From: an uncultured Chlamydiae bacterium
Lineage (GTDB): Bacteria > Chlamydiota > Chlamydiia > Chlamydiales > JAJFMB01
Direction: 5' to 3'
Assembly (NCBI GenBank): GCA_963696295.1
Contig: CAVOJR010000001.1
Span: 2,144,001 to 2,208,000 of the forward strand
DNA: 64,000 nucleotides
Each line of letters starts with the position of its first letter. Positions within the stretch are counted from its first letter, which is position 1. Shown piece by piece: positions 13,042 through 30,324 of the stretch. The translations under genes and the position numbers were made by a program. The notes under the pieces are model-generated. The model was not told the DNA's origin. It did not search any database and saw only the letters and a program-made list of their open reading frames with translations.

Positions 13042-13124
13042 GCTCGGGTGGTGGAATGGTAGACACTAGGGACTTAAAATCCCTTGGGCTTCGGCCCGTG
13101 CGGGTTCGAGTCCCGCTTCGAGCA
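13042..13124 (+). tRNA. tRNA-Leu (anticodon TAA)
   Basis: Acceptor stem GCTCGGG/TTCGAGC+A, D-loop TGGAATGGTAGAC, anticodon arm AGGGA-CTTAAAA-TCCCT, long variable arm, T-loop GTTCGAG. Confidence 0.97.
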
Positions 13125-13126
13125 CA
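13070..13126 (+). repeat. attL core (3' half of tRNA-Leu)
   Basis: GGACTTAAAATCCCTTGGGCTTCGGCCCGTGCGGGTTCGAGTCCCGCTTCGAGCACA, identical to 30268-30324. Confidence 0.95.
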
Positions 13127-13229
13127 TTGATATTCAATTACTTATGACATGTTGCATAACCTCCTAACTAGTGGACGAGTCGCAGCTGGGACCCAAATGG
13201 GACAGTGCGGAAAAATAGGAGAAAATCAC

Positions 13230-14300
13230 ATGTTTATAGAAAAAAGATTACGTAAAGATGGAAAAATTAGTTACCGTGCAAGAGTTGTACAACACGGTAA
13301 ACTAAAAACTAAAACTTTTGCAACCCAGACTAAAGCAAAAATTTGGGGACAGAAGTTAGAGCCAATGTTAAGAGAAGATCCTTCGCTTCTTGGCTTTGAA
13401 ACAAATAAGCGCACCTTTGGAGACTTTGTAGATAGGTATATCGAAAAAGAGCTCCCCAAGGACCCAAAAAGCTTAGCCAAAGCAAAGCTACATCTTCTTT
13501 GGTGGAAAAAGCATTTGGGGAAGCAAATCTTAAGCTACATCACCCCTCCTATGCTTGCAGAACTCAGAGATAAGCTCATGACAGAGATGACCTATAGGGG
13601 GCGATTAAGATCATCATCAACAGCAAATCGATACATAGCTACTCTTAGCAAAGCCTTTAATGTTGCTGTTAAGGAGTGGGCCTGGCTGAAGGAGAATCCC
13701 TTTAAAAAGATCACCCGCCCTAAAGAAGGGAAGGCTCGCGACCGGTTTTTGGAGAAAGATGAGATTCAGACTCTGCTCGCCGCCAGTAAGAAAGTGAATA
13801 GCGATCATCTATATCCCTTTGTACTTTTTGCGCTAAGCACGGGTGCCCGTAAAGGGGAGATTCTCAATCTTGAGTGGGCAGATATCGACTTTCAACGATC
13901 GGTCGCCACATTCCGAGAGACAAAGAACGGAGAATCCAGATCCGTATCACTAAACCCTAGCCTAGTTGCTCTACTGTGTAAGGAGAGGTTGAGAAGGGCC
14001 ATCTTTAGCCGTTTTGTGTTTCCTAGCAAAGATGGAAAAAAGCCAGCTGACATAAGGACGGCGTGGGAAAATGCCGTTAAACTGTCAGGTTTGCGAGCTG
14101 TTACCATTCACTCTCTACGGCACACTTGTGCCAGCCATTTGGCAATGCAGGGAGCTTCAACCCTTGAGATAGCGGCAATTCTCGGGCATAGGACCTTGGC
14201 TATGGTTAAGCGGTATAGTCACTTGAGCACCTCGTCAACTGCTGCTGCTTTGAATAGAATGAACGAAGAAGTTCTGATGGAGTATTTGAATGCCGGTTGA
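13230..14300 (+). CDS. Tyrosine integrase, intact catalytic residues
   Basis: TGARKGE (R), ETKNG (K), HSLRH (HxxR), LGH, KRYSH (Y); ATG 13230 after AGGAG. Confidence 0.95.
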   Translation: MFIEKRLRKDGKISYRARVVQHGKLKTKTFATQTKAKIWGQKLEPMLREDPSLLGFETNKRTFGDFVDRYIEKELPKDPKSLAKAKLHLLWWKKHLGKQILSYITPPMLAELRDKLMTEMTYRGRLRSSSTANRYIATLSKAFNVAVKEWAWLKENPFKKITRPKEGKARDRFLEKDEIQTLLAASKKVNSDHLYPFVLFALSTGARKGEILNLEWADIDFQRSVATFRETKNGESRSVSLNPSLVALLCKERLRRAIFSRFVFPSKDGKKPADIRTAWENAVKLSGLRAVTIHSLRHTCASHLAMQGASTLEIAAILGHRTLAMVKRYSHLSTSSTAAALNRMNEEVLMEYLNAG

Positions 14301-15201
14301 GCCTGTGCAATTGACTAGCAAAGGTGAGTCTCAAAAGGACTCGCCTGCTGATGTTTTTCAGAGATTTTTAGAAAAATTAGACTCTGACAGAGAAAATTTA
14401 TTAAAGGGAGCAGAGGAATTCAGCGAAGCTAGTGATAAAATAAGAGAAGCCAAAGAAGATTTCTTCCTACAAATTCAGAGCACACCCCTTGTTAATATTA
14501 TCAGTGTTTGGACAGAGCGATACCTAAGAAACAATCAAATCTGCCATTCAATGCTAAAGAGCATCCGCGATCTGATCGATGAAAAGTTGATCAGGATCAA
14601 AAACTCAAAAAACGAGTATTTTTCTCTTGGAGAGTTCGCTGGTGAAGTTCATTCAATCATAGATTCAATTCGTTGTGTGAAAAAATGGCCCGTGATTAGA
14701 AGGGAACAAAATGTCCTACACTTTTTGGACTTCACCGATTGGCTTTCTAAAGTTACCCAAGGCTTTATTCCGAGAATTGAAGATCCCGATAGGCTACGAA
14801 CATGTGAAAGATCCCTCGCCTTTGGCTCTTTCATCGATCTCCTTTCCCATCTTGAAAATCGATATCAACTAATCGCCGATCTACTTTTCTTTGGCGGAGA
14901 TCGCACCTTGGAAGAGATTGTCAAGTTGCACATCGAAGATATTGATTTTGAACGACGACTTGTAAAATATCCGTCTGAGGAAGTTCTATACCCTCAACAC
15001 ATCATCGATGACCTTATGATCCAAATTAATGCAAGGCTAACTGGTCTCGTTTTTTTGGGACGTCAAAATCGCCCTCTCAATGCGTCCTCTGTATTTAGAA
15101 ATATCAAGGATGCCGCCTTAAGAGCTGGTTTAGGAGAGCTTTTTTCTCCAAAGCTGTTAGCGACAAACTCATCAAATGTCACGCAAAATGCAATAAAATA
15201 A
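14290..15201 (+). CDS. Truncated, probably inactive tyrosine-recombinase-family protein resembling chlamydial plasmid pGP8/pGP7
   Basis: LIADLLFFGGDRTLEEIVKLHIEDIDF (box I-like), YPQHII, LVFLGRQNRPL; box II reads SPKLLA and the protein ends with no catalytic Tyr. Confidence 0.7.
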   Translation: MPVEPVQLTSKGESQKDSPADVFQRFLEKLDSDRENLLKGAEEFSEASDKIREAKEDFFLQIQSTPLVNIISVWTERYLRNNQICHSMLKSIRDLIDEKLIRIKNSKNEYFSLGEFAGEVHSIIDSIRCVKKWPVIRREQNVLHFLDFTDWLSKVTQGFIPRIEDPDRLRTCERSLAFGSFIDLLSHLENRYQLIADLLFFGGDRTLEEIVKLHIEDIDFERRLVKYPSEEVLYPQHIIDDLMIQINARLTGLVFLGRQNRPLNASSVFRNIKDAALRAGLGELFSPKLLATNSSNVTQNAIK

Positions 15202-15272
15202 CGAAAAGTATTGCGAAATTAAATTTCATTCTGCTACGTTAGGTCCGTCTACTAGTTAGAAGGTCATGCAGA

Positions 15273-28488: not shown

Positions 28489-28776
28489 TCATTTAAGGGG
28501 TCGTCCAGCCCTGAGCTGGGCTTCCCTCTTCTTAAACCTTCCTCCATTTCCATTCTCAGCTTTGGTTATAGCTTCTCTAAGGGCATCTTCGACAAATTGG
28601 GCGACAGTAAGTCGATGCCAATAAACGATATCTTTCACACCCTCTATGACCTCTCGGCCTATTTGAACGGTTATCCGCTCTTTGATGGAGGGCTGCTGTT
28701 TTTTTGCTGTTGCTGTTTGTTTTATCTGTTTAGCTTTTGAAGGGGATTTTTCTTTGGGTGGTGGTGTGCGCGCCAT
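28489..28776 (-). CDS. Ribbon-helix-helix (CopG-like) DNA-binding protein
   Basis: KERITVQIGREVIEGVKDIVYWHRLTVAQFVEDALREAI is an RHH-like strand-helix-helix. Confidence 0.6.
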   Translation of the reverse strand: MARTPPPKEKSPSKAKQIKQTATAKKQQPSIKERITVQIGREVIEGVKDIVYWHRLTVAQFVEDALREAITKAENGNGGRFKKREAQLRAGRPLK

Positions 28777-28984
28777 TTGTTTTCCTTTTCGTTCCGCATT
28801 GAAGAGATTTCCATATTTACCAAAAATACTGTTAATCCTGTTTTTCTGCATCACTTTTGTCACGTCACCGGTCGGTAGCGTGACAAAGTTTTCGGTTCTT
28901 ATGTTTATTTATTGGCTTCAATTGATAGGTTGTGTATGATCAATGTATAGTTAATGAACACCAAAATAGCAGTGAGAGCTCAAA

Positions 28985-29662
28985 ATGAGATTAATCGCCT
29001 ACATACGTGTTAGCACAGATAGCCAAGCGGAAAGCGGAGCAGGACTTCAGGCTCAAATGGATGCTTGTGAAAAATATGCGAAGAGCCATGGATTAACTAT
29101 CCACATGATTTATAAGGATGAAGGTGTAAGCGGAGCTGCTGAATTGGAAGACCGTCCTGGTCTCATGAGCGCTTTGAACGAGCTGCAAAAAAGTGATATC
29201 CTGCTTTGCTCAAAAAGGGATAGGCTGGCTAGGGGTGATCACATGGCGATGATTCAATGGCAAGTGAATAAGAGAAAAGCGAGGATTGTTAGCGTGGCCG
29301 GGGAAGGGACCGAGGGCGAATTAAACGATCCCATGTCCTACATGATGCGCGGAATGACCGACCTCTTCGCCGGCTTTGAGCGCCTCCTCATCAAATCGAG
29401 GACTAAAGCCGCTCTCCAAGCCATGAAAGCACAAGGAAAGCGCATTGGCCATGTTCCCTTTGGCTTCAAGCTAATGCAAGATGGGGTTTATCTAGAAGAA
29501 TGCCCAGATGAACAGGAAATATTAAGACAAATGGGAGAGCTAAGGGCTGAAGGGCTCTCCATTCGAGAAATTGCTCGAGCATTGAATGAGCGTGGAGCTT
29601 TTAACCGAGGGGGGAGCAATTGGAATCACGGAAGTGTTCACCGCATACTAAAGGCCGCATAG
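28985..29662 (+). CDS. Small serine recombinase (resolvase/invertase family)
   Basis: AYIRVST catalytic motif, DEGVSG, DRPGL, KRDRLAR, ERLLIKSRT, C-terminal LSIREIARALN HTH. Confidence 0.93.
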   Translation: MRLIAYIRVSTDSQAESGAGLQAQMDACEKYAKSHGLTIHMIYKDEGVSGAAELEDRPGLMSALNELQKSDILLCSKRDRLARGDHMAMIQWQVNKRKARIVSVAGEGTEGELNDPMSYMMRGMTDLFAGFERLLIKSRTKAALQAMKAQGKRIGHVPFGFKLMQDGVYLEECPDEQEILRQMGELRAEGLSIREIARALNERGAFNRGGSNWNHGSVHRILKAA

Positions 29663-30075
29663 AAGAAAAACTGGACAAACTTGCCGAGAGCGTCTCAATG
29701 CTCCCGGATGATCGTATAGATGAGTTTAAAGGGCTCCTCAATAAAAAGGCTTATTCTACTATGGATGCTGCCGGAATACTTGGGATATCCGTTTCAACCT
29801 TGCGCCGCCTCATGAGAACCGGCCGCATCAAATATTTCCGCATTAACCATCATATACGCATTCTAGCCTCTGAAATAGAACGTTTTCAAAGCGACATCAG
29901 CATCAATGAGGCCGCCGACATCTTGGGCGTTCATACTGTGACAATTCGCCGTTTAATCGAAAGTGGTAAGCTCCCAGCTCATAAAGTTGGTAGACCCTAC
30001 CGAATTGCTGTTGTTGATTTACACAAGCTAATGGTAAGCGAAATACCGGAAAACAAGATCATTCCTTTTAAATAA
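29620..30075 (+). CDS. Tandem HTH excisionase-like protein
   Basis: Two repeats: YSTMDAAGILGISVSTLRRLMRTGRI and ISINEAADILGVHTVTIRRLIESGKLPAHKVG. Confidence 0.8.
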   Translation: MESRKCSPHTKGRIEEKLDKLAESVSMLPDDRIDEFKGLLNKKAYSTMDAAGILGISVSTLRRLMRTGRIKYFRINHHIRILASEIERFQSDISINEAADILGVHTVTIRRLIESGKLPAHKVGRPYRIAVVDLHKLMVSEIPENKIIPFK

Positions 30076-30267
30076 ACAGTCAACGAAGGGGAACATCTTA
30101 TTCCCTAAATCTCCATCAAGTCTTAAATTCATGGGACTCCCGTGGGACACTACGTCACACTACTTCCCATAACAAGACGTTATTTCCCATTACATTGACT
30201 ACCTTTTCCATGGTATAATACATAATGGGATGTTAGGGGGCGTTATGAAACGTAACGAAAAGAGGTA

Positions 30268-30324
30268 GGACTTAAAATCCCTTGGGCTTCGGCCCGTGCG
30301 GGTTCGAGTCCCGCTTCGAGCACA
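30268..30324 (+). repeat. attR core (duplicated 3' half of tRNA-Leu)
   Basis: 57-bp identity to 13070-13126; no tRNA 5' half upstream. Confidence 0.95.

What the first reader, a model, noticed from the sequence alone, without database searches (positions are those of the whole stretch)
13070..30324. tRNA-integrated hybrid of a chlamydial plasmid replicon and a tailed-phage packaging module (candidate satellite)
Seen: a 17.2-kb element with identical 57-bp att repeats, an intact tyrosine integrase, DnaB plus a Rep-like gene plus 22-bp iterons, a terS/terL pair, a 940-aa virion-like gene, SF2 helicase, SSB, serine recombinase and several Xis/AlpA-like HTH genes. No capsid, portal, tail or lysis gene is recognisable. 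Established: the Chlamydia plasmid carries DnaB-like pGP1, pGP2, recombinases pGP7/pGP8 and a 22-bp-repeat origin, and the characterised chlamydiaphages are ssDNA microviruses without terminases. Inference: this is a plasmid-derived integrative satellite that packages its DNA into particles of an unknown dsDNA helper phage or GTA. That would offer a route for spread of chlamydial plasmid genes.
Basis: partly seen in the sequence, partly recalled or inferred. Interest (0 to 1): 0.93.

Follow-up and report, generated by a model that had tools for sequence, protein, structure and literature searches.

The report
Capsid-less terminase island in a chlamydia
A 17-kb mobile island in a leucine tRNA gene of an environmental chlamydia carries its own DNA-copying and phage DNA-packaging genes but no virus-shell genes, so it probably travels in shells borrowed from a little-known group of tailed phages that also turns up in chlamydial genomes.

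Summary
A 17.2-kb element lies in tRNA-Leu(taa) between 62-nt direct repeats that differ at one base. It encodes an intact tyrosine integrase, a full DnaB, a 543-aa protein followed by three perfect 22-bp repeats, a TerS-like/TerL pair, a 940-aa virion-type protein, an SF2 helicase, SSB, a short serine recombinase and one double excisionase-type HTH. No capsid, portal, tail or lysis family was found in the element. The genome gave no hit to the three portal/capsid families and the one phage-type capsid protein searched.

The backbone recurs at tRNA genes in other genomes of the same order, with the same integrase, an inactive pGP7/8-like second integrase, a helicase, the 543-aa family and 22-24-bp repeats. 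Two more such islands lie in this genome. Most carry TerS+TerL, and none shows a capsid gene.

The window's TerS, TerL and 940-aa gene come from a 35-41-kb tailed-phage lineage with portal and capsid. That lineage's capsid gene is present in 8 of 400 sampled genomes of the order.

Best reading (about 0.5): a PICI-like satellite that packages itself into helper capsids. The plasmid-replicon idea is only partly supported, because no pGP2 homology was detected. There is no experimental evidence of excision or packaging.

The parts
13042..13125 (+). tRNA-Leu(taa), the integration target
   Evidence: ARAGORN. The same tRNA species flanks the three islands whose integrases are closest, L030, L070 and L075.
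13070..13131 (.). attL: left direct repeat, the 3' part of the tRNA
   Evidence: 62-nt repeat with 1 mismatch to 30268-30329
13149..14300 (+). tyrosine integrase (383 aa), intact
   Evidence: PF00589 1.3e-33; phrog_1 2.7e-78. It is 52-58% identical to the integrases of islands L030, L070 and L075.
14290..15201 (+). integrase-derived 303-aa protein of the pGP7/8 kind, catalytically inactive
   Evidence: All 4 of its 4 PLSDB hits are chlamydial plasmid integrases. It is the only hit of C. suis pGP7 in this genome, 9e-9. In the alignment it lacks the HxxR box and the C-terminal tyrosine segment. It is conserved at the same position in L030, L070 and L075 at 30-33% identity.
15273..15536 (+). 87-aa ORF, function unknown
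   Evidence: 39% identical to the ORF at the same position in L075; no family
15664..17181 (+). DnaB replicative helicase (505 aa)
   Evidence: DnaB_C 5.3e-88 and DnaB N-terminal domain 1.6e-27. Identity is 52% to the host's chromosomal DnaB, 33.6% to C. suis pGP1 and 38.5% to Simkania pSn DnaB.
17174..18805 (+). 543-aa protein, candidate iteron-binding replication initiator
   Evidence: Relatives occur in 17 of 400 other genomes of the order. In 9 of 9 checked they lie directly downstream of a helicase gene. In 10 of 11 they are followed by 22-24-bp tandem repeats. No Pfam, PDB or pGP2 similarity.
18806..18871 (.). three perfect 22-bp iterons, candidate replication origin
   Evidence: The repeat unit shares TCTTCCCACG with the repeat behind the closest homologue, in L031.
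19234..22056 (-). 940-aa virion-type protein, intact (tape-measure-like or ejection-type)
   Evidence: It has 4 full-length homologues at 33-55% identity. In metagenomic and IMG/VR phage contigs its relatives lie inside structural modules with major head, tail and tail-fibre genes.
22135..22320 (-). 61-aa ORF between TerL and the 940-aa gene; doubtful gene
   Evidence: no family and no homologue
22329..23642 (-). terminase large subunit (PBSX family)
   Evidence: phrog_2 1.8e-43; TIGR01547 129 bits. Identity is 51% to the TerL of L079 and L093, and 40% to the TerL of the phage contig G247:C102.
23557..24048 (-). 163-aa probable terminase small subunit
   Evidence: Homologues lie directly upstream of the TerL homologue in 20 of 21 IMG/VR loci and in L079. 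The AF2 model (pLDDT 79) gives weak matches to small terminases. No Pfam family.
24061..25266 (-). three small ORFs of 128, 168 and 79 aa, unknown function
   Evidence: The 128-aa ORF is conserved next to TerS in L070 (39%) and L093 (47-48%). The 79-aa ORF looks AlpA-like by eye only; no family.
25428..27185 (-). SF2 (ResIII/DEAD) helicase, 585 aa
   Evidence: ResIII 2.7e-29; phrog_16 1.1e-94. It is 53-54% identical to the helicases of islands L030 and L075.
27243..27641 (+). single-strand DNA-binding protein
   Evidence: PF00436 1.7e-20. Degraded copies at 82-88% identity lie at C1:393.3-393.7 kb and on C2.
27757..28863 (.). three small ORFs (68 aa +, 147 aa +, 124 aa -), cargo or regulators
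   Evidence: The 124-aa and 147-aa ORFs have copies on C2 at 69% and 42% identity, and the 124-aa ORF matches one in L075 at 48%. The 124-aa ORF gives a weak RHH hit, E 0.11.
28985..29662 (+). serine recombinase, 225 aa, probably truncated
   Evidence: Resolvase 3.3e-32. The Recombinase domain match covers model positions 1-50 of 102 and ends at the C-terminus.
29620..30075 (+). double HTH_17 / excisionase-type DNA-binding protein
   Evidence: PF12728 1.3e-27 in 2 stretches; TIGR01764 1.5e-21
30268..30329 (.). attR: right direct repeat, a partial tRNA copy

Best explanation
The element is an integrative, self-replicating phage satellite of the PICI kind in an environmental chlamydia.

Shown:
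- It sits in tRNA-Leu between intact att repeats and has an intact integrase.
- It has its own replicon module: DnaB, a 543-aa protein and 22-bp repeats.
- It has a TerS-like/TerL pair and an intact virion-type gene.
- It has no capsid, portal or tail genes.

Inferred:
- After induction, most likely by an infecting helper phage, Int excises the element. The inactive pGP7/8-like protein and the excisionase-type HTH probably assist.
- The 543-aa protein binds the iterons and loads DnaB, with the SF2 helicase and SSB supporting replication.
- The element's TerS recognises its own DNA, and its TerL docks on the portal of helper procapsids. The helper would belong to the 35-41-kb tailed-phage lineage from which TerS, TerL and the 940-aa gene were taken.
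- The 940-aa protein is built into the particles or injected from them.
- The element then re-integrates at tRNA-Leu in a new cell.
For: 1. Integrity. The att repeats differ at 1 of 62 nt, and the integrase, DnaB, TerL and the 940-aa gene are full length against their homologues.

2. Conserved capsid-less layout.
- L075 (G135) is a 16.6-kb element with 58-bp att repeats at the same tRNA. Its order is Int (57%), Int2 (30%), o87, helicase, 543-aa family, iterons, then TerL, TerS, a 163-aa ORF and an SF2 helicase (53%).
- This genome holds a second island of 17.8 kb with 54-bp att repeats at tRNA-Tyr. It carries Int, a 294-aa ORF at the Int2 position (no similarity detected), a primase-helicase, an SF2 helicase, TerS, TerL, a 358-aa protein and a 1479-aa LPD38 protein.
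- Eleven loci carry the same ~145-aa TerS family, and ten of them also carry a ~500-aa TerL (L028 has none in the stretch read). None has a capsid or portal hit. What follows is cargo: Kdp, a type I restriction-modification system with Fic, or a nuclease.

3. The window-type TerS-TerL pair also occurs without a portal. In L079 (TerS 50%, TerL 51%) ankyrin-repeat genes follow. In L093 an 11-kb IMG/VR contig shows an Int, replication, TerS, TerL layout.

4. In phages the same pair is followed by a portal. This holds in 15 of 21 loci found with TerS and in 37 of 48 TerL loci that have at least 6 kb downstream.

5. A helper-type phage lineage exists in the order.
- G247:C102 (35.5 kb) has a TerL 40% identical to the window's, a portal (phrog_156) and a capsid protein (phrog_1357). 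That capsid protein is 84-89% identical to those of the metagenomic phages that carry 940-aa homologues.
- The capsid protein was found in 8 of 400 other genomes from 7 families.
- A syntenic prophage lies in a 137-kb contig of G147.

6. Replicon. 22-24-bp repeats follow the 543-aa homologue in 10 of 11 relatives, with a different sequence in each lineage.

7. Contig sizes. The 29 closest TerL homologues (53% identity or more) all lie on contigs of 23.2 kb or less. Of the 90 more distant ones, 26 lie on contigs above 30 kb (Fisher p = 4.5e-4; the sequences are not independent).

8. One JGI contig length, 14,840 bp, is reported for a TerS-like (75%), a TerL-like (61%) and a 940-aa-like (55%) protein. 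That is too short for the roughly 18 kb that separate these genes in the phage.
Against: - There is no evidence of excision, replication or packaging. No sequencing run could be listed.
- No helper phage was found in this genome. Portal and capsid searches came back empty, and only TerL matches among 55 ORFs of the G247 phage.
- The TerS assignment rests on position and weak fold matches.
- The relatives of TerS, TerL and the 940-aa gene sit in complete phages. A deletion between TerL and the 940-aa gene in a captured phage segment would give the same picture.
- L030 keeps the backbone without any terminase, so packaging genes are not indispensable to the family.
- The family is decaying in this genome. 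Island 3 carries IS elements, and fragments lie on C2 and at C1:392-394 kb.
- The serine recombinase looks truncated.
- Why a satellite would carry a 940-aa tail- or injection-module gene is unexplained.
- The role of the 543-aa protein is inferred only. No known fold or family was found.
Confidence: 0.5

Rival explanations
1. A mosaic genomic island that is no longer, or never was, packaged. On this reading an integrative replicon picked up a fragment of a tailed prophage (TerS, TerL and one virion gene), and the rest of the morphogenesis module was lost by deletion. The terminase genes are decaying passengers or are kept for another use.
For: - Relatives of TerS, TerL and the 940-aa gene lie in complete phages with portal and capsid.
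- GC content is mosaic, 0.33-0.37 against 0.52-0.55.
- L030 has the backbone without terminase.
- Decayed copies and IS-ridden island 3 are present in the same genome.
- The serine recombinase is truncated.
- No helper was found in the genome.
Against: - All phage-derived genes are full length, and the att sites are nearly identical.
- The same TerS-TerL-without-capsid layout recurs with two unrelated terminase types, across several families, and in a second island of this genome. Independent random deletions would not be expected to produce this.
- The closest TerL relatives sit only on short contigs.
Confidence: 0.27
2. An integrated chlamydial plasmid or integrative mobilisable element. It would spread by plasmid-like routes such as excision, episomal replication, and transformation or conjugation supplied in trans, with the phage genes as cargo.
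For: - It has a pGP7/8-like protein.
- Its helicase, large ORF and 22-bp repeat layout parallels pGP1, pGP2 and the 22-bp repeats of the C. suis plasmid.
- Helicases of sister islands are homologous to the Rhabdochlamydia plasmid helicase at 212-284 bits.
- One homologue of the 543-aa family lies on a 230-kb second contig of G292.
- Phage genes on chlamydial plasmids are in print (PMC7846284, passages read).
- Fragments of the element lie on this genome's 135-kb second contig.
Against: - No ParA/pGP5, pGP6, pGP2, relaxase or T4SS gene was seen in the element.
- Int is a tRNA-targeting, phage-type integrase.
- DnaB is closest to the chromosomal DnaB.
- This reading does not explain the conserved TerS-TerL pair.
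Confidence: 0.13
3. A complete but unrecognised small virus whose capsid and portal are hidden among the unannotated ORFs.
For: Eleven ORFs have no family. Chlamydial proteins are poorly covered by profile libraries.
Against: - Apart from the 543-aa, 940-aa and 303-aa proteins, no unknown ORF exceeds 168 aa. That is too short for an HK97-fold capsid protein or a portal (size limits recalled from general knowledge).
- The relatives of TerL use separate, recognisable portal and capsid genes, and these are absent here.
Confidence: 0.04

Closest known systems
PICIs (phage-inducible chromosomal islands, SaPI type), as defined in de Sousa et al. 2023, PMC10085698 (passages read)
   Same: Site-specific integrase at one end, own replication module with an iteron-type origin, a small-terminase gene, accessory genes, no capsid or lysis genes, and several islands per genome.
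   Different: - It also carries TerL and a large virion-type gene.
- The replicon is DnaB plus an uncharacterised 543-aa protein, not a primase-replicase.
- No AlpA/Stl-type regulator was recognised.
- At 17.2 kb it is larger than I recall PICIs being (sizes from memory).
- The host phylum has no described tailed phages in the papers I searched.
- No induction or transfer has been shown.
cfPICIs (capsid-forming PICIs), PMC10085698 (passages read)
   Same: A satellite that encodes both TerS and TerL.
   Different: The defining capsid, head-tail adaptor and connector genes are absent. It carries a gene from the tail or injection part of the phage module, and tail genes are a forbidden component in the cfPICI model.
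Chlamydial plasmids (pGP1-pGP8 with a 22-bp repeat origin), e.g. C. suis pR19; Koestlbacher et al. 2021, PMC7846284 (passages read)
   Same: A DnaB-type helicase followed by a large ORF, tandem 22-bp repeats and a pGP7/8-family protein. A 'phage group' of genes including a terminase on some chlamydial plasmids is in print.
   Different: - It is integrated at a tRNA.
- There is no pGP2, pGP3, pGP4, pGP5 or pGP6 homologue in the element.
- The repeat sequences are unrelated.
- The pGP7/8-like protein is inactive.
- DnaB is nearer to the chromosomal DnaB.
Genomic island PnaK_GI2 of Protochlamydia naegleriophila (Bertelli et al. 2016, PMC5010888, passages read)
   Same: A tRNA-linked island with hypothetical proteins, a potassium transporter and a phage terminase large subunit. 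Locus L073 shows this composition: a RepB-primase/DUF3987 protein, TerS, TerL, then the Kdp operon.
   Different: That paper lists the island without interpreting it. Its replication protein and terminase type differ from the window's. No virion-type gene was noted there.
Marine VEIMEs and tycheposons
   Same: tRNA-integrated small elements with an integrase and a replicative helicase, some with packaging genes.
   Different: Not compared here. Different hosts and, as far as I recall, different gene families.

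Membership tests
PICI (PMC10085698) | integrase | tested here: met
   PF00589 1.3e-33, phrog_1 2.7e-78; att repeats
PICI (PMC10085698) | regulation module homologous to alpA, merR or stl | tested here: inconclusive
   ORF 29620-30075 matches HTH_17 (1.3e-27) and MerR (4.7e-09). 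The 79-aa and 87-aa ORFs that look AlpA-like by eye match no family.
PICI (PMC10085698) | primase-replicase module | tested here: not met
   No primase or replicase family was found. The analogous module is DnaB plus the 543-aa protein plus iterons. Sister islands do carry primase-helicases.
PICI (PMC10085698) | small terminase subunit | tested here: inconclusive
   No family and no profile match to the GP3_package-type TerS of sister islands. Its position upstream of TerL is conserved in 20 of 21 viral loci. Weak TerS fold matches.
PICI (PMC10085698) | no other phage structural or lysis genes | tested here: not met
   It carries TerL and a 940-aa protein whose relatives lie in phage structural modules.
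cfPICI (PMC10085698) | large terminase | tested here: met
   phrog_2 1.8e-43; TIGR01547 above cut-off
cfPICI (PMC10085698) | capsid, head-tail adaptor and connector genes | tested here: not met
   No such family in 20-21 ORFs. No PF05065, PF04860, phrog_156 or phage-type capsid match anywhere in the genome.
Chlamydial plasmid replicon | pGP1 (DnaB-like helicase) | tested here: met
   C. suis pGP1 hits the element's DnaB best in this genome (33.6%, 231 bits, against 194 bits for the chromosomal DnaB). However, the element's DnaB is 52% identical to the chromosomal DnaB.
Chlamydial plasmid replicon | pGP2 homologue | tested here: not met
   No tblastn hit of the 543-aa protein or of a family member in PLSDB. 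BLASTP E 0.46. hhalign probability 0.2%. An HMM of 150 family members scores pGP2 at -2.4 bits. No comparison of folds was possible.
Chlamydial plasmid replicon | pGP7/pGP8 integrases | tested here: met
   Homology is present: 4 of 4 PLSDB hits are chlamydial plasmid integrases, and it is the only pGP7 hit in the genome. The protein lacks the HxxR box and the catalytic tyrosine segment.
Chlamydial plasmid replicon | tandem 22-bp repeats as origin | tested here: inconclusive
   The period is the same (22 bp: 3 copies here, 4 in C. suis pR19 at 7408-7496), but the sequences are unrelated by eye. Origin function was not tested.
Chlamydial plasmid replicon | ParA/pGP5 and pGP6 | tested here: not met
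   The only hits lie elsewhere on the chromosome, at C1:1415.3-1416.7 kb.
Complete tailed prophage (Caudoviricetes) | portal, major capsid and tail genes next to TerL | tested here: not met
   In related phages a portal follows TerL in 37 of 48 loci.

The most novel reading that the evidence does not exclude
Environmental chlamydiae host an undescribed lineage of 35-41-kb tailed dsDNA phages and a family of about 17-kb terminase-encoding, capsid-less satellites that parasitise them. The satellites combine chlamydia-specific replicons (helicase, 543-aa initiator, iterons) with captured TerS/TerL genes and virion or injected proteins that share an N-terminal MVQ[VI]L motif. Together they would form a natural transduction system, moving cargo such as restriction systems, Kdp and ankyrin effectors between intracellular bacteria.
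Probability: 0.4. Interest if true: 0.85.

Novelty: new variant of a known kind. Interest (0 to 1): 0.68.

Why it matters
The phages of chlamydiae that I know of are small ssDNA microviruses (recalled). Gene flow in these obligate intracellular bacteria is usually ascribed to plasmids and an F-like or ICE-type transfer system (PMC7846284, passages read). A satellite-helper system built on tailed phages would add transduction as a route. It would explain the tRNA-linked islands with lone terminases already listed in published genomes (PMC5010888). It would also point to a self-contained chlamydial replicon, made of a helicase, a 543-aa protein and iterons, whose protein family is large (1076 cluster representatives) and uncharacterised. 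In addition it gives a concrete phage lineage to look for in amoeba and protist co-cultures.

Tried and rejected
- Sequencing runs for attP/attB junctions: none was listed.
- pGP2 homology of the 543-aa protein: nothing was found by tblastn in PLSDB, BLASTP, hhalign or a 150-member HMM. The Rhabdochlamydia 466-aa protein scored only 6.5 bits.
- Fold of the 543-aa protein: the AF2 model has mean pLDDT 54.8, and only residues 20-230 are confident. Foldseek against the PDB gave nothing at E <= 0.001. VIA-align wide matched only a helical hairpin at residues 238-304, with Z below 8.
- ESM Atlas: the nearest named cluster for the 543-aa protein is a Rep3_N plasmid initiator, score 0.93 and flagged by the tool as often chance. 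For the 940-aa protein it gave only a weak LPD22 lead, score 0.85. Both were kept as leads only.
- PDB sequence searches with the 543-aa protein, the 940-aa protein, the TerS profile and a 36-member profile of the 543-aa family: nothing meaningful.
- Profile comparison of the 163-aa protein with the GP3_package-type TerS of sister islands: no similarity.
- Genome-collection scan with the 940-aa alignment: no relative found.
- IMG/VR scan with the close TerL clade: it returned only phage-type relatives at 49% identity or less.
- A proper DnaB tree was not built; I used pairwise scores only.
- I first considered a simple decayed prophage. I rejected it as the leading reading because the backbone relatives never carry capsid genes and the layout recurs with two terminase types.

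Full report
**What is there.** The window is G000:C1:2144001-2208000 of a 3.43-Mb genome in two contigs, 3.30 Mb and 135 kb. One tRNA gene is found, tRNA-Leu(taa) at 13042-13125. Its 3' part (13070-13131) recurs at 30268-30329 with 61 of 62 nt identical, the first 57 without a mismatch, which bounds a 17.2-kb insert. A perfect 22-bp x 3 array (18806-18871) begins at the base after the stop codon of a 543-aa ORF.

Profile searches confirm seven genes:
- a tyrosine integrase;
- a full-length DnaB;
- a PBSX-family large terminase;
- an SF2 helicase;
- SSB;
- a serine recombinase that stops halfway through its Recombinase domain;
- a double excisionase-type HTH protein.

None of 20-21 ORFs matches a capsid, portal, tail or lysis family in Pfam, PHROGs or NCBIfam. 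GC content is patchy, 0.33-0.37 around the end of DnaB and the 543-aa gene and 0.52-0.55 over the 940-aa gene. The labels 'terS', 'Rep-like' and most of the 'Xis/AlpA-like' genes rest on no family match.

**The host is a chlamydia.**
- The C. suis plasmid proteins pGP5 and pGP6 (CT583 family) hit an adjacent chromosomal gene pair.
- The best plasmid match of the DnaB is Simkania pSn.
- The 303-aa protein hits only chlamydial plasmids.

**The replication module.**
- *Where the 543-aa family occurs.* The 543-aa protein has relatives in 17 of 400 other sampled genomes of the same order.
- *Its neighbours.* In 9 of 9 cases checked, the gene just upstream is a DnaB-type, AAA_25 or primase-helicase gene. 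In 10 of 11 relatives a 22-24-bp tandem repeat of 2-3 copies lies within about 320 bp downstream. The repeat differs in sequence between lineages. The closest homologue's repeat shares TCTTCCCACG with the window's.
- *What this suggests.* This is the pattern expected of an initiator and its iterons, but it is an inference.
- *What the searches gave.* The family has no Pfam match in any of 11 members and no PDB relative. Only its N-terminal domain folds with confidence, and the fold searches were uninformative. A Rep3_N lead from the ESM Atlas is weak. The family is large, with 1076 cluster representatives at E <= 0.001.

**Relation to the chlamydial plasmid.**
- *For the idea.* The 303-aa protein downstream of Int matches only chlamydial plasmid integrases in PLSDB: Simkania 3e-11, C. 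suis 2e-5 and two Rhabdochlamydia plasmids. It is the sole match of pGP7 in this genome. pGP1 matches the element's DnaB slightly better than the chromosomal DnaB, 231 against 194 bits. The helicases of sister islands are homologous to the Rhabdochlamydia plasmid helicase at 212-284 bits. The order helicase, large ORF, 22-bp repeats mirrors the plasmid.
- *Against it.* The element's DnaB is 52% identical to the host's own DnaB, but only 38.5% to the best plasmid DnaB and 33.6% to pGP1. No similarity to pGP2 was found by any sequence method. The repeat sequences differ. pGP3 to pGP6 have no counterpart in the element. The 303-aa protein and its three island homologues lack the HxxR box and the whole tyrosine-bearing C-terminus, so they cannot be active recombinases.
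- *Verdict.* The plasmid affinity is real for one gene, generic for the helicase, and unshown for the 'Rep'.

**The packaging module and its source.**
- *The 940-aa protein.* It has four full-length homologues at 33-55% identity. Eight metagenomic and IMG/VR loci carry relatives. There they lie inside structural modules with a major head protein (phrog_1357), tail proteins, a virion structural protein and tail fibres. No other element gene was found in those flanks apart from one weak SSB match, 25% identity in L009.
- *The 163-aa protein.* It has 54 homologues. In 20 of 21 IMG/VR loci it lies directly upstream of a TerL that is 35-51% identical to the window's. A portal follows in 15 of them. 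Its model (pLDDT 79) gives weak matches to small terminases: Sf6 gp1 at E about 1, and BFVD 'Terminase small subunit' entries at E 0.026 and 0.048.
- *What follows TerL in phages.* Of 48 IMG/VR loci with at least 6 kb downstream of the TerL homologue, 37 have the same portal type and none has a 940-aa homologue within reach.
- *A phage contig in a chlamydial assembly.* G247:C102 (35.5 kb) has an exonuclease, an O-like initiator, RusA, a TerL 40% identical to the window's, a portal and a capsid protein. That capsid protein is 84-89% identical to those of the phages carrying 940-aa homologues. In it, non-homologous genes fill the slot of the 940-aa gene.
- *Spread of the lineage in the order.* The capsid protein was found in 8 of 400 other genomes from 7 families. 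A syntenic prophage with portal, capsid and tail genes lies on a 137-kb contig of G147.
- *Conclusion.* The window's TerS, TerL and 940-aa gene derive from a tailed-phage lineage that is associated with chlamydial assemblies. In those phages a full morphogenesis module lies between TerL and the 940-aa slot.

**The backbone is not that phage.**
- *Closest relative.* Int, the 303-aa protein, the 87-aa ORF, the helicase, the 543-aa family, the SF2 helicase and the 124-aa ORF are shared with L075 (G135). That is a 16.6-kb element with 58-bp att repeats at tRNA-Leu(taa).
- *Other relatives.* L030 (G162) and L070 (G155) share part of this set and sit at the same tRNA.
- *Terminase content.* L075 and L070 carry a different TerS/TerL type (GP3_package/phrog_3064 with phrog_2472). 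L030 carries none.
- *Second island in this genome.* It spans C1:2640419-2658221 (17.8 kb, 54-bp att). Its genes are Int, a 294-aa protein, a primase-helicase, an SF2 helicase, TerS, TerL, a 358-aa protein and a 1479-aa LPD38 'polyvalent' protein.
- *Third island and fragments.* The third island spans C1:1453891-1474448 (20.6 kb, 46-bp att) and has IS insertions and no terminase. Fragments of the window's element lie on the 135-kb contig and at C1:392-394 kb.
- *The TerS family elsewhere.* Eleven loci share the ~145-aa TerS family. In ten of them a ~500-aa TerL follows (L028 has none in the stretch read), and then cargo: the Kdp operon, a type I restriction-modification system with Fic, or a YhcG nuclease. 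None has a capsid or portal hit. PHROGs was run on L037, L069-L071 and L075, and Pfam alone on L072-L077.
- *tRNA linkage.* A tRNA gene lies next to the integrase in 12 of 17 island loci.
- *The window-type pair without a portal.* In L079 (TerS 50%, TerL 51%) ankyrin genes follow. In L093, an 11-kb IMG/VR contig, the order is Int, a DUF5906 replication protein, a homologue of the 128-aa ORF, TerS, TerL.
- *How common TerL is.* TerL-type genes are frequent in the order: 47 places in 41 genomes at E <= 2e-22 among 401 searched.

**How I weigh it.** Three arguments favour a functional satellite design over random prophage decay:
- The layout of integrase, own replicon, TerS-TerL and no capsid recurs with two unrelated terminase types, in several families and in two islands of one genome.
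- All phage-derived genes here are full length.
- The closest TerL homologues (53% identity or more, n = 29) sit only on contigs of 23.2 kb or less, while 26 of 90 more distant ones sit on contigs above 30 kb. The sequences are related and contigs are fragmentary, so the p-value is only indicative.

A shared contig length of 14,840 bp for close homologues of TerS, TerL and the 940-aa protein also suggests that the compact arrangement is conserved. I could not fetch that contig, and the accession look-up gave nothing.

On the other side:
- There is no sign of activity.
- No helper was found in this 97%-complete genome.
- One backbone relative lacks terminase.
- The family is visibly decaying in this genome.
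- The presence of a tail- or injection-module gene is unexplained.

One hint bears on that last point. The proteins encoded just after TerL in three islands (940 aa here, 358 aa in island 2, 336 aa in L070) and the phage homologues all begin with MVQ[VI]L. In two sister islands the slot holds LPD38 polyvalent proteins. From memory of Iyer et al. 2017, which I did not read here, such proteins are thought to be delivered with the DNA.

I put the satellite reading at about 0.5, a non-packaged mosaic island at about 0.27, an integrated plasmid-type element at about 0.13 and a cryptic complete virus at about 0.04.

**Comparison with the known.**
- *PICI and cfPICI.* By the PICI definition in PMC10085698 (passages read), the element has the integrase, a probable TerS and a replication module of another kind. 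It lacks a recognised AlpA/Stl regulator and a capsid-morphogenesis gene, and it breaks the rule of no further structural genes. It has the cfPICI marker TerL but none of the capsid, adaptor or connector genes. It therefore lies between the two models.
- *In print.* PMC5010888 (passages read) lists a tRNA-linked island with Kdp and TerL in Protochlamydia, without interpretation. PMC7846284 (passages read) reports a 'phage group', including a terminase, on two chlamydial plasmids and a viral origin for pgp7/8. PMC12644861 (passages read) mentions unclassified viruses predicted to infect Chlamydiales.
- *Searches that found no description.* My searches for chlamydiae with terminase and prophage, chlamydiae with Caudoviricetes, chlamydiae with plasmid, pGP2 and integrated, and phage satellite with large terminase turned up no description of such satellites or of tailed chlamydial phages. 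The library is incomplete, and I did not read supplements.
- *Earlier notes of this scan.* Two notes (e1-7715143, e1-8054003) reached the same reading for islands in other chlamydial genomes. They are not independent evidence. My own survey of the order agrees with them, and it adds the phage lineage and the initiator-iteron replicon.

Noticed in passing
G000:C1:2640419-2658221 (outside the window; loci L034, L037): A second intact-looking island of 17.8 kb with 54-bp att repeats at tRNA-Tyr. Its genes are Int, a 294-aa ORF, a primase-helicase, an SF2 helicase, TerS, TerL, a 358-aa protein and a 1479-aa LPD38 polyvalent protein. No capsid genes.
   Followed up: partly
G000:C1:1453891-1474448 (loci L033, L038): A third related island of 20.6 kb with 46-bp att repeats at tRNA-Thr. 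It has Int, a 360-aa ORF, an SF2 helicase, an AAA_25 protein and IS-type transposases, with no terminase match.
   Followed up: partly
G000:C2:23.6-25.5 kb and G000:C1:392.2-393.7 kb: Degraded copies of the right part of the window's element: the 124-aa, 147-aa and SSB genes and an integrase fragment, at 42-88% identity. One copy is on the 135-kb second contig.
   Followed up: no
G247:C102 (L078, L081); G125:C145; G324:C10 and C39; G147:C1 (L193, L194); G308:C4 (L192): A lineage of tailed phages with portal phrog_156 and capsid phrog_1357 occurs in chlamydial assemblies of 7 families. It includes a syntenic prophage on a 137-kb contig and a capsid-gene remnant 5 kb from a gene 62% identical to a chromosomal gene of G000.
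   Followed up: partly
window 21946-22056 (-), N-terminus of the 940-aa protein; L037:6410-7486; L070:12913-13923: The proteins encoded just downstream of TerL in three islands, and the phage homologues of the 940-aa protein, share an N-terminal MVQ[VI]L... segment. It is 78% identical over 37 aa between the 940-aa and 358-aa proteins. It might be a signal for incorporation into virions.
   Followed up: partly
L193:13290-14090 and 17561-18310 (G147:C1): The TerL of the G147 prophage appears as two pieces about 3.5 kb apart, each 42% identical to the TerL of island 2. It may be interrupted by an insertion.
   Followed up: no
window 30337-30443: Directly after attR lie a TTC x 6 run, a 21-bp repeat (2.2-2.6 copies) and a 12-bp repeat.
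   Followed up: no
window 27757-27963 (+): The 68-aa ORF begins with a hydrophobic segment ending in ...ITGC, which looks like a lipoprotein signal peptide. This was read from the translation; no tool was run.
   Followed up: no
L079:7059-9936 (G319:C145): Two ankyrin-repeat genes lie directly after the TerL of an island-type locus, so eukaryote-targeting effector-like cargo may ride on these elements.
   Followed up: no
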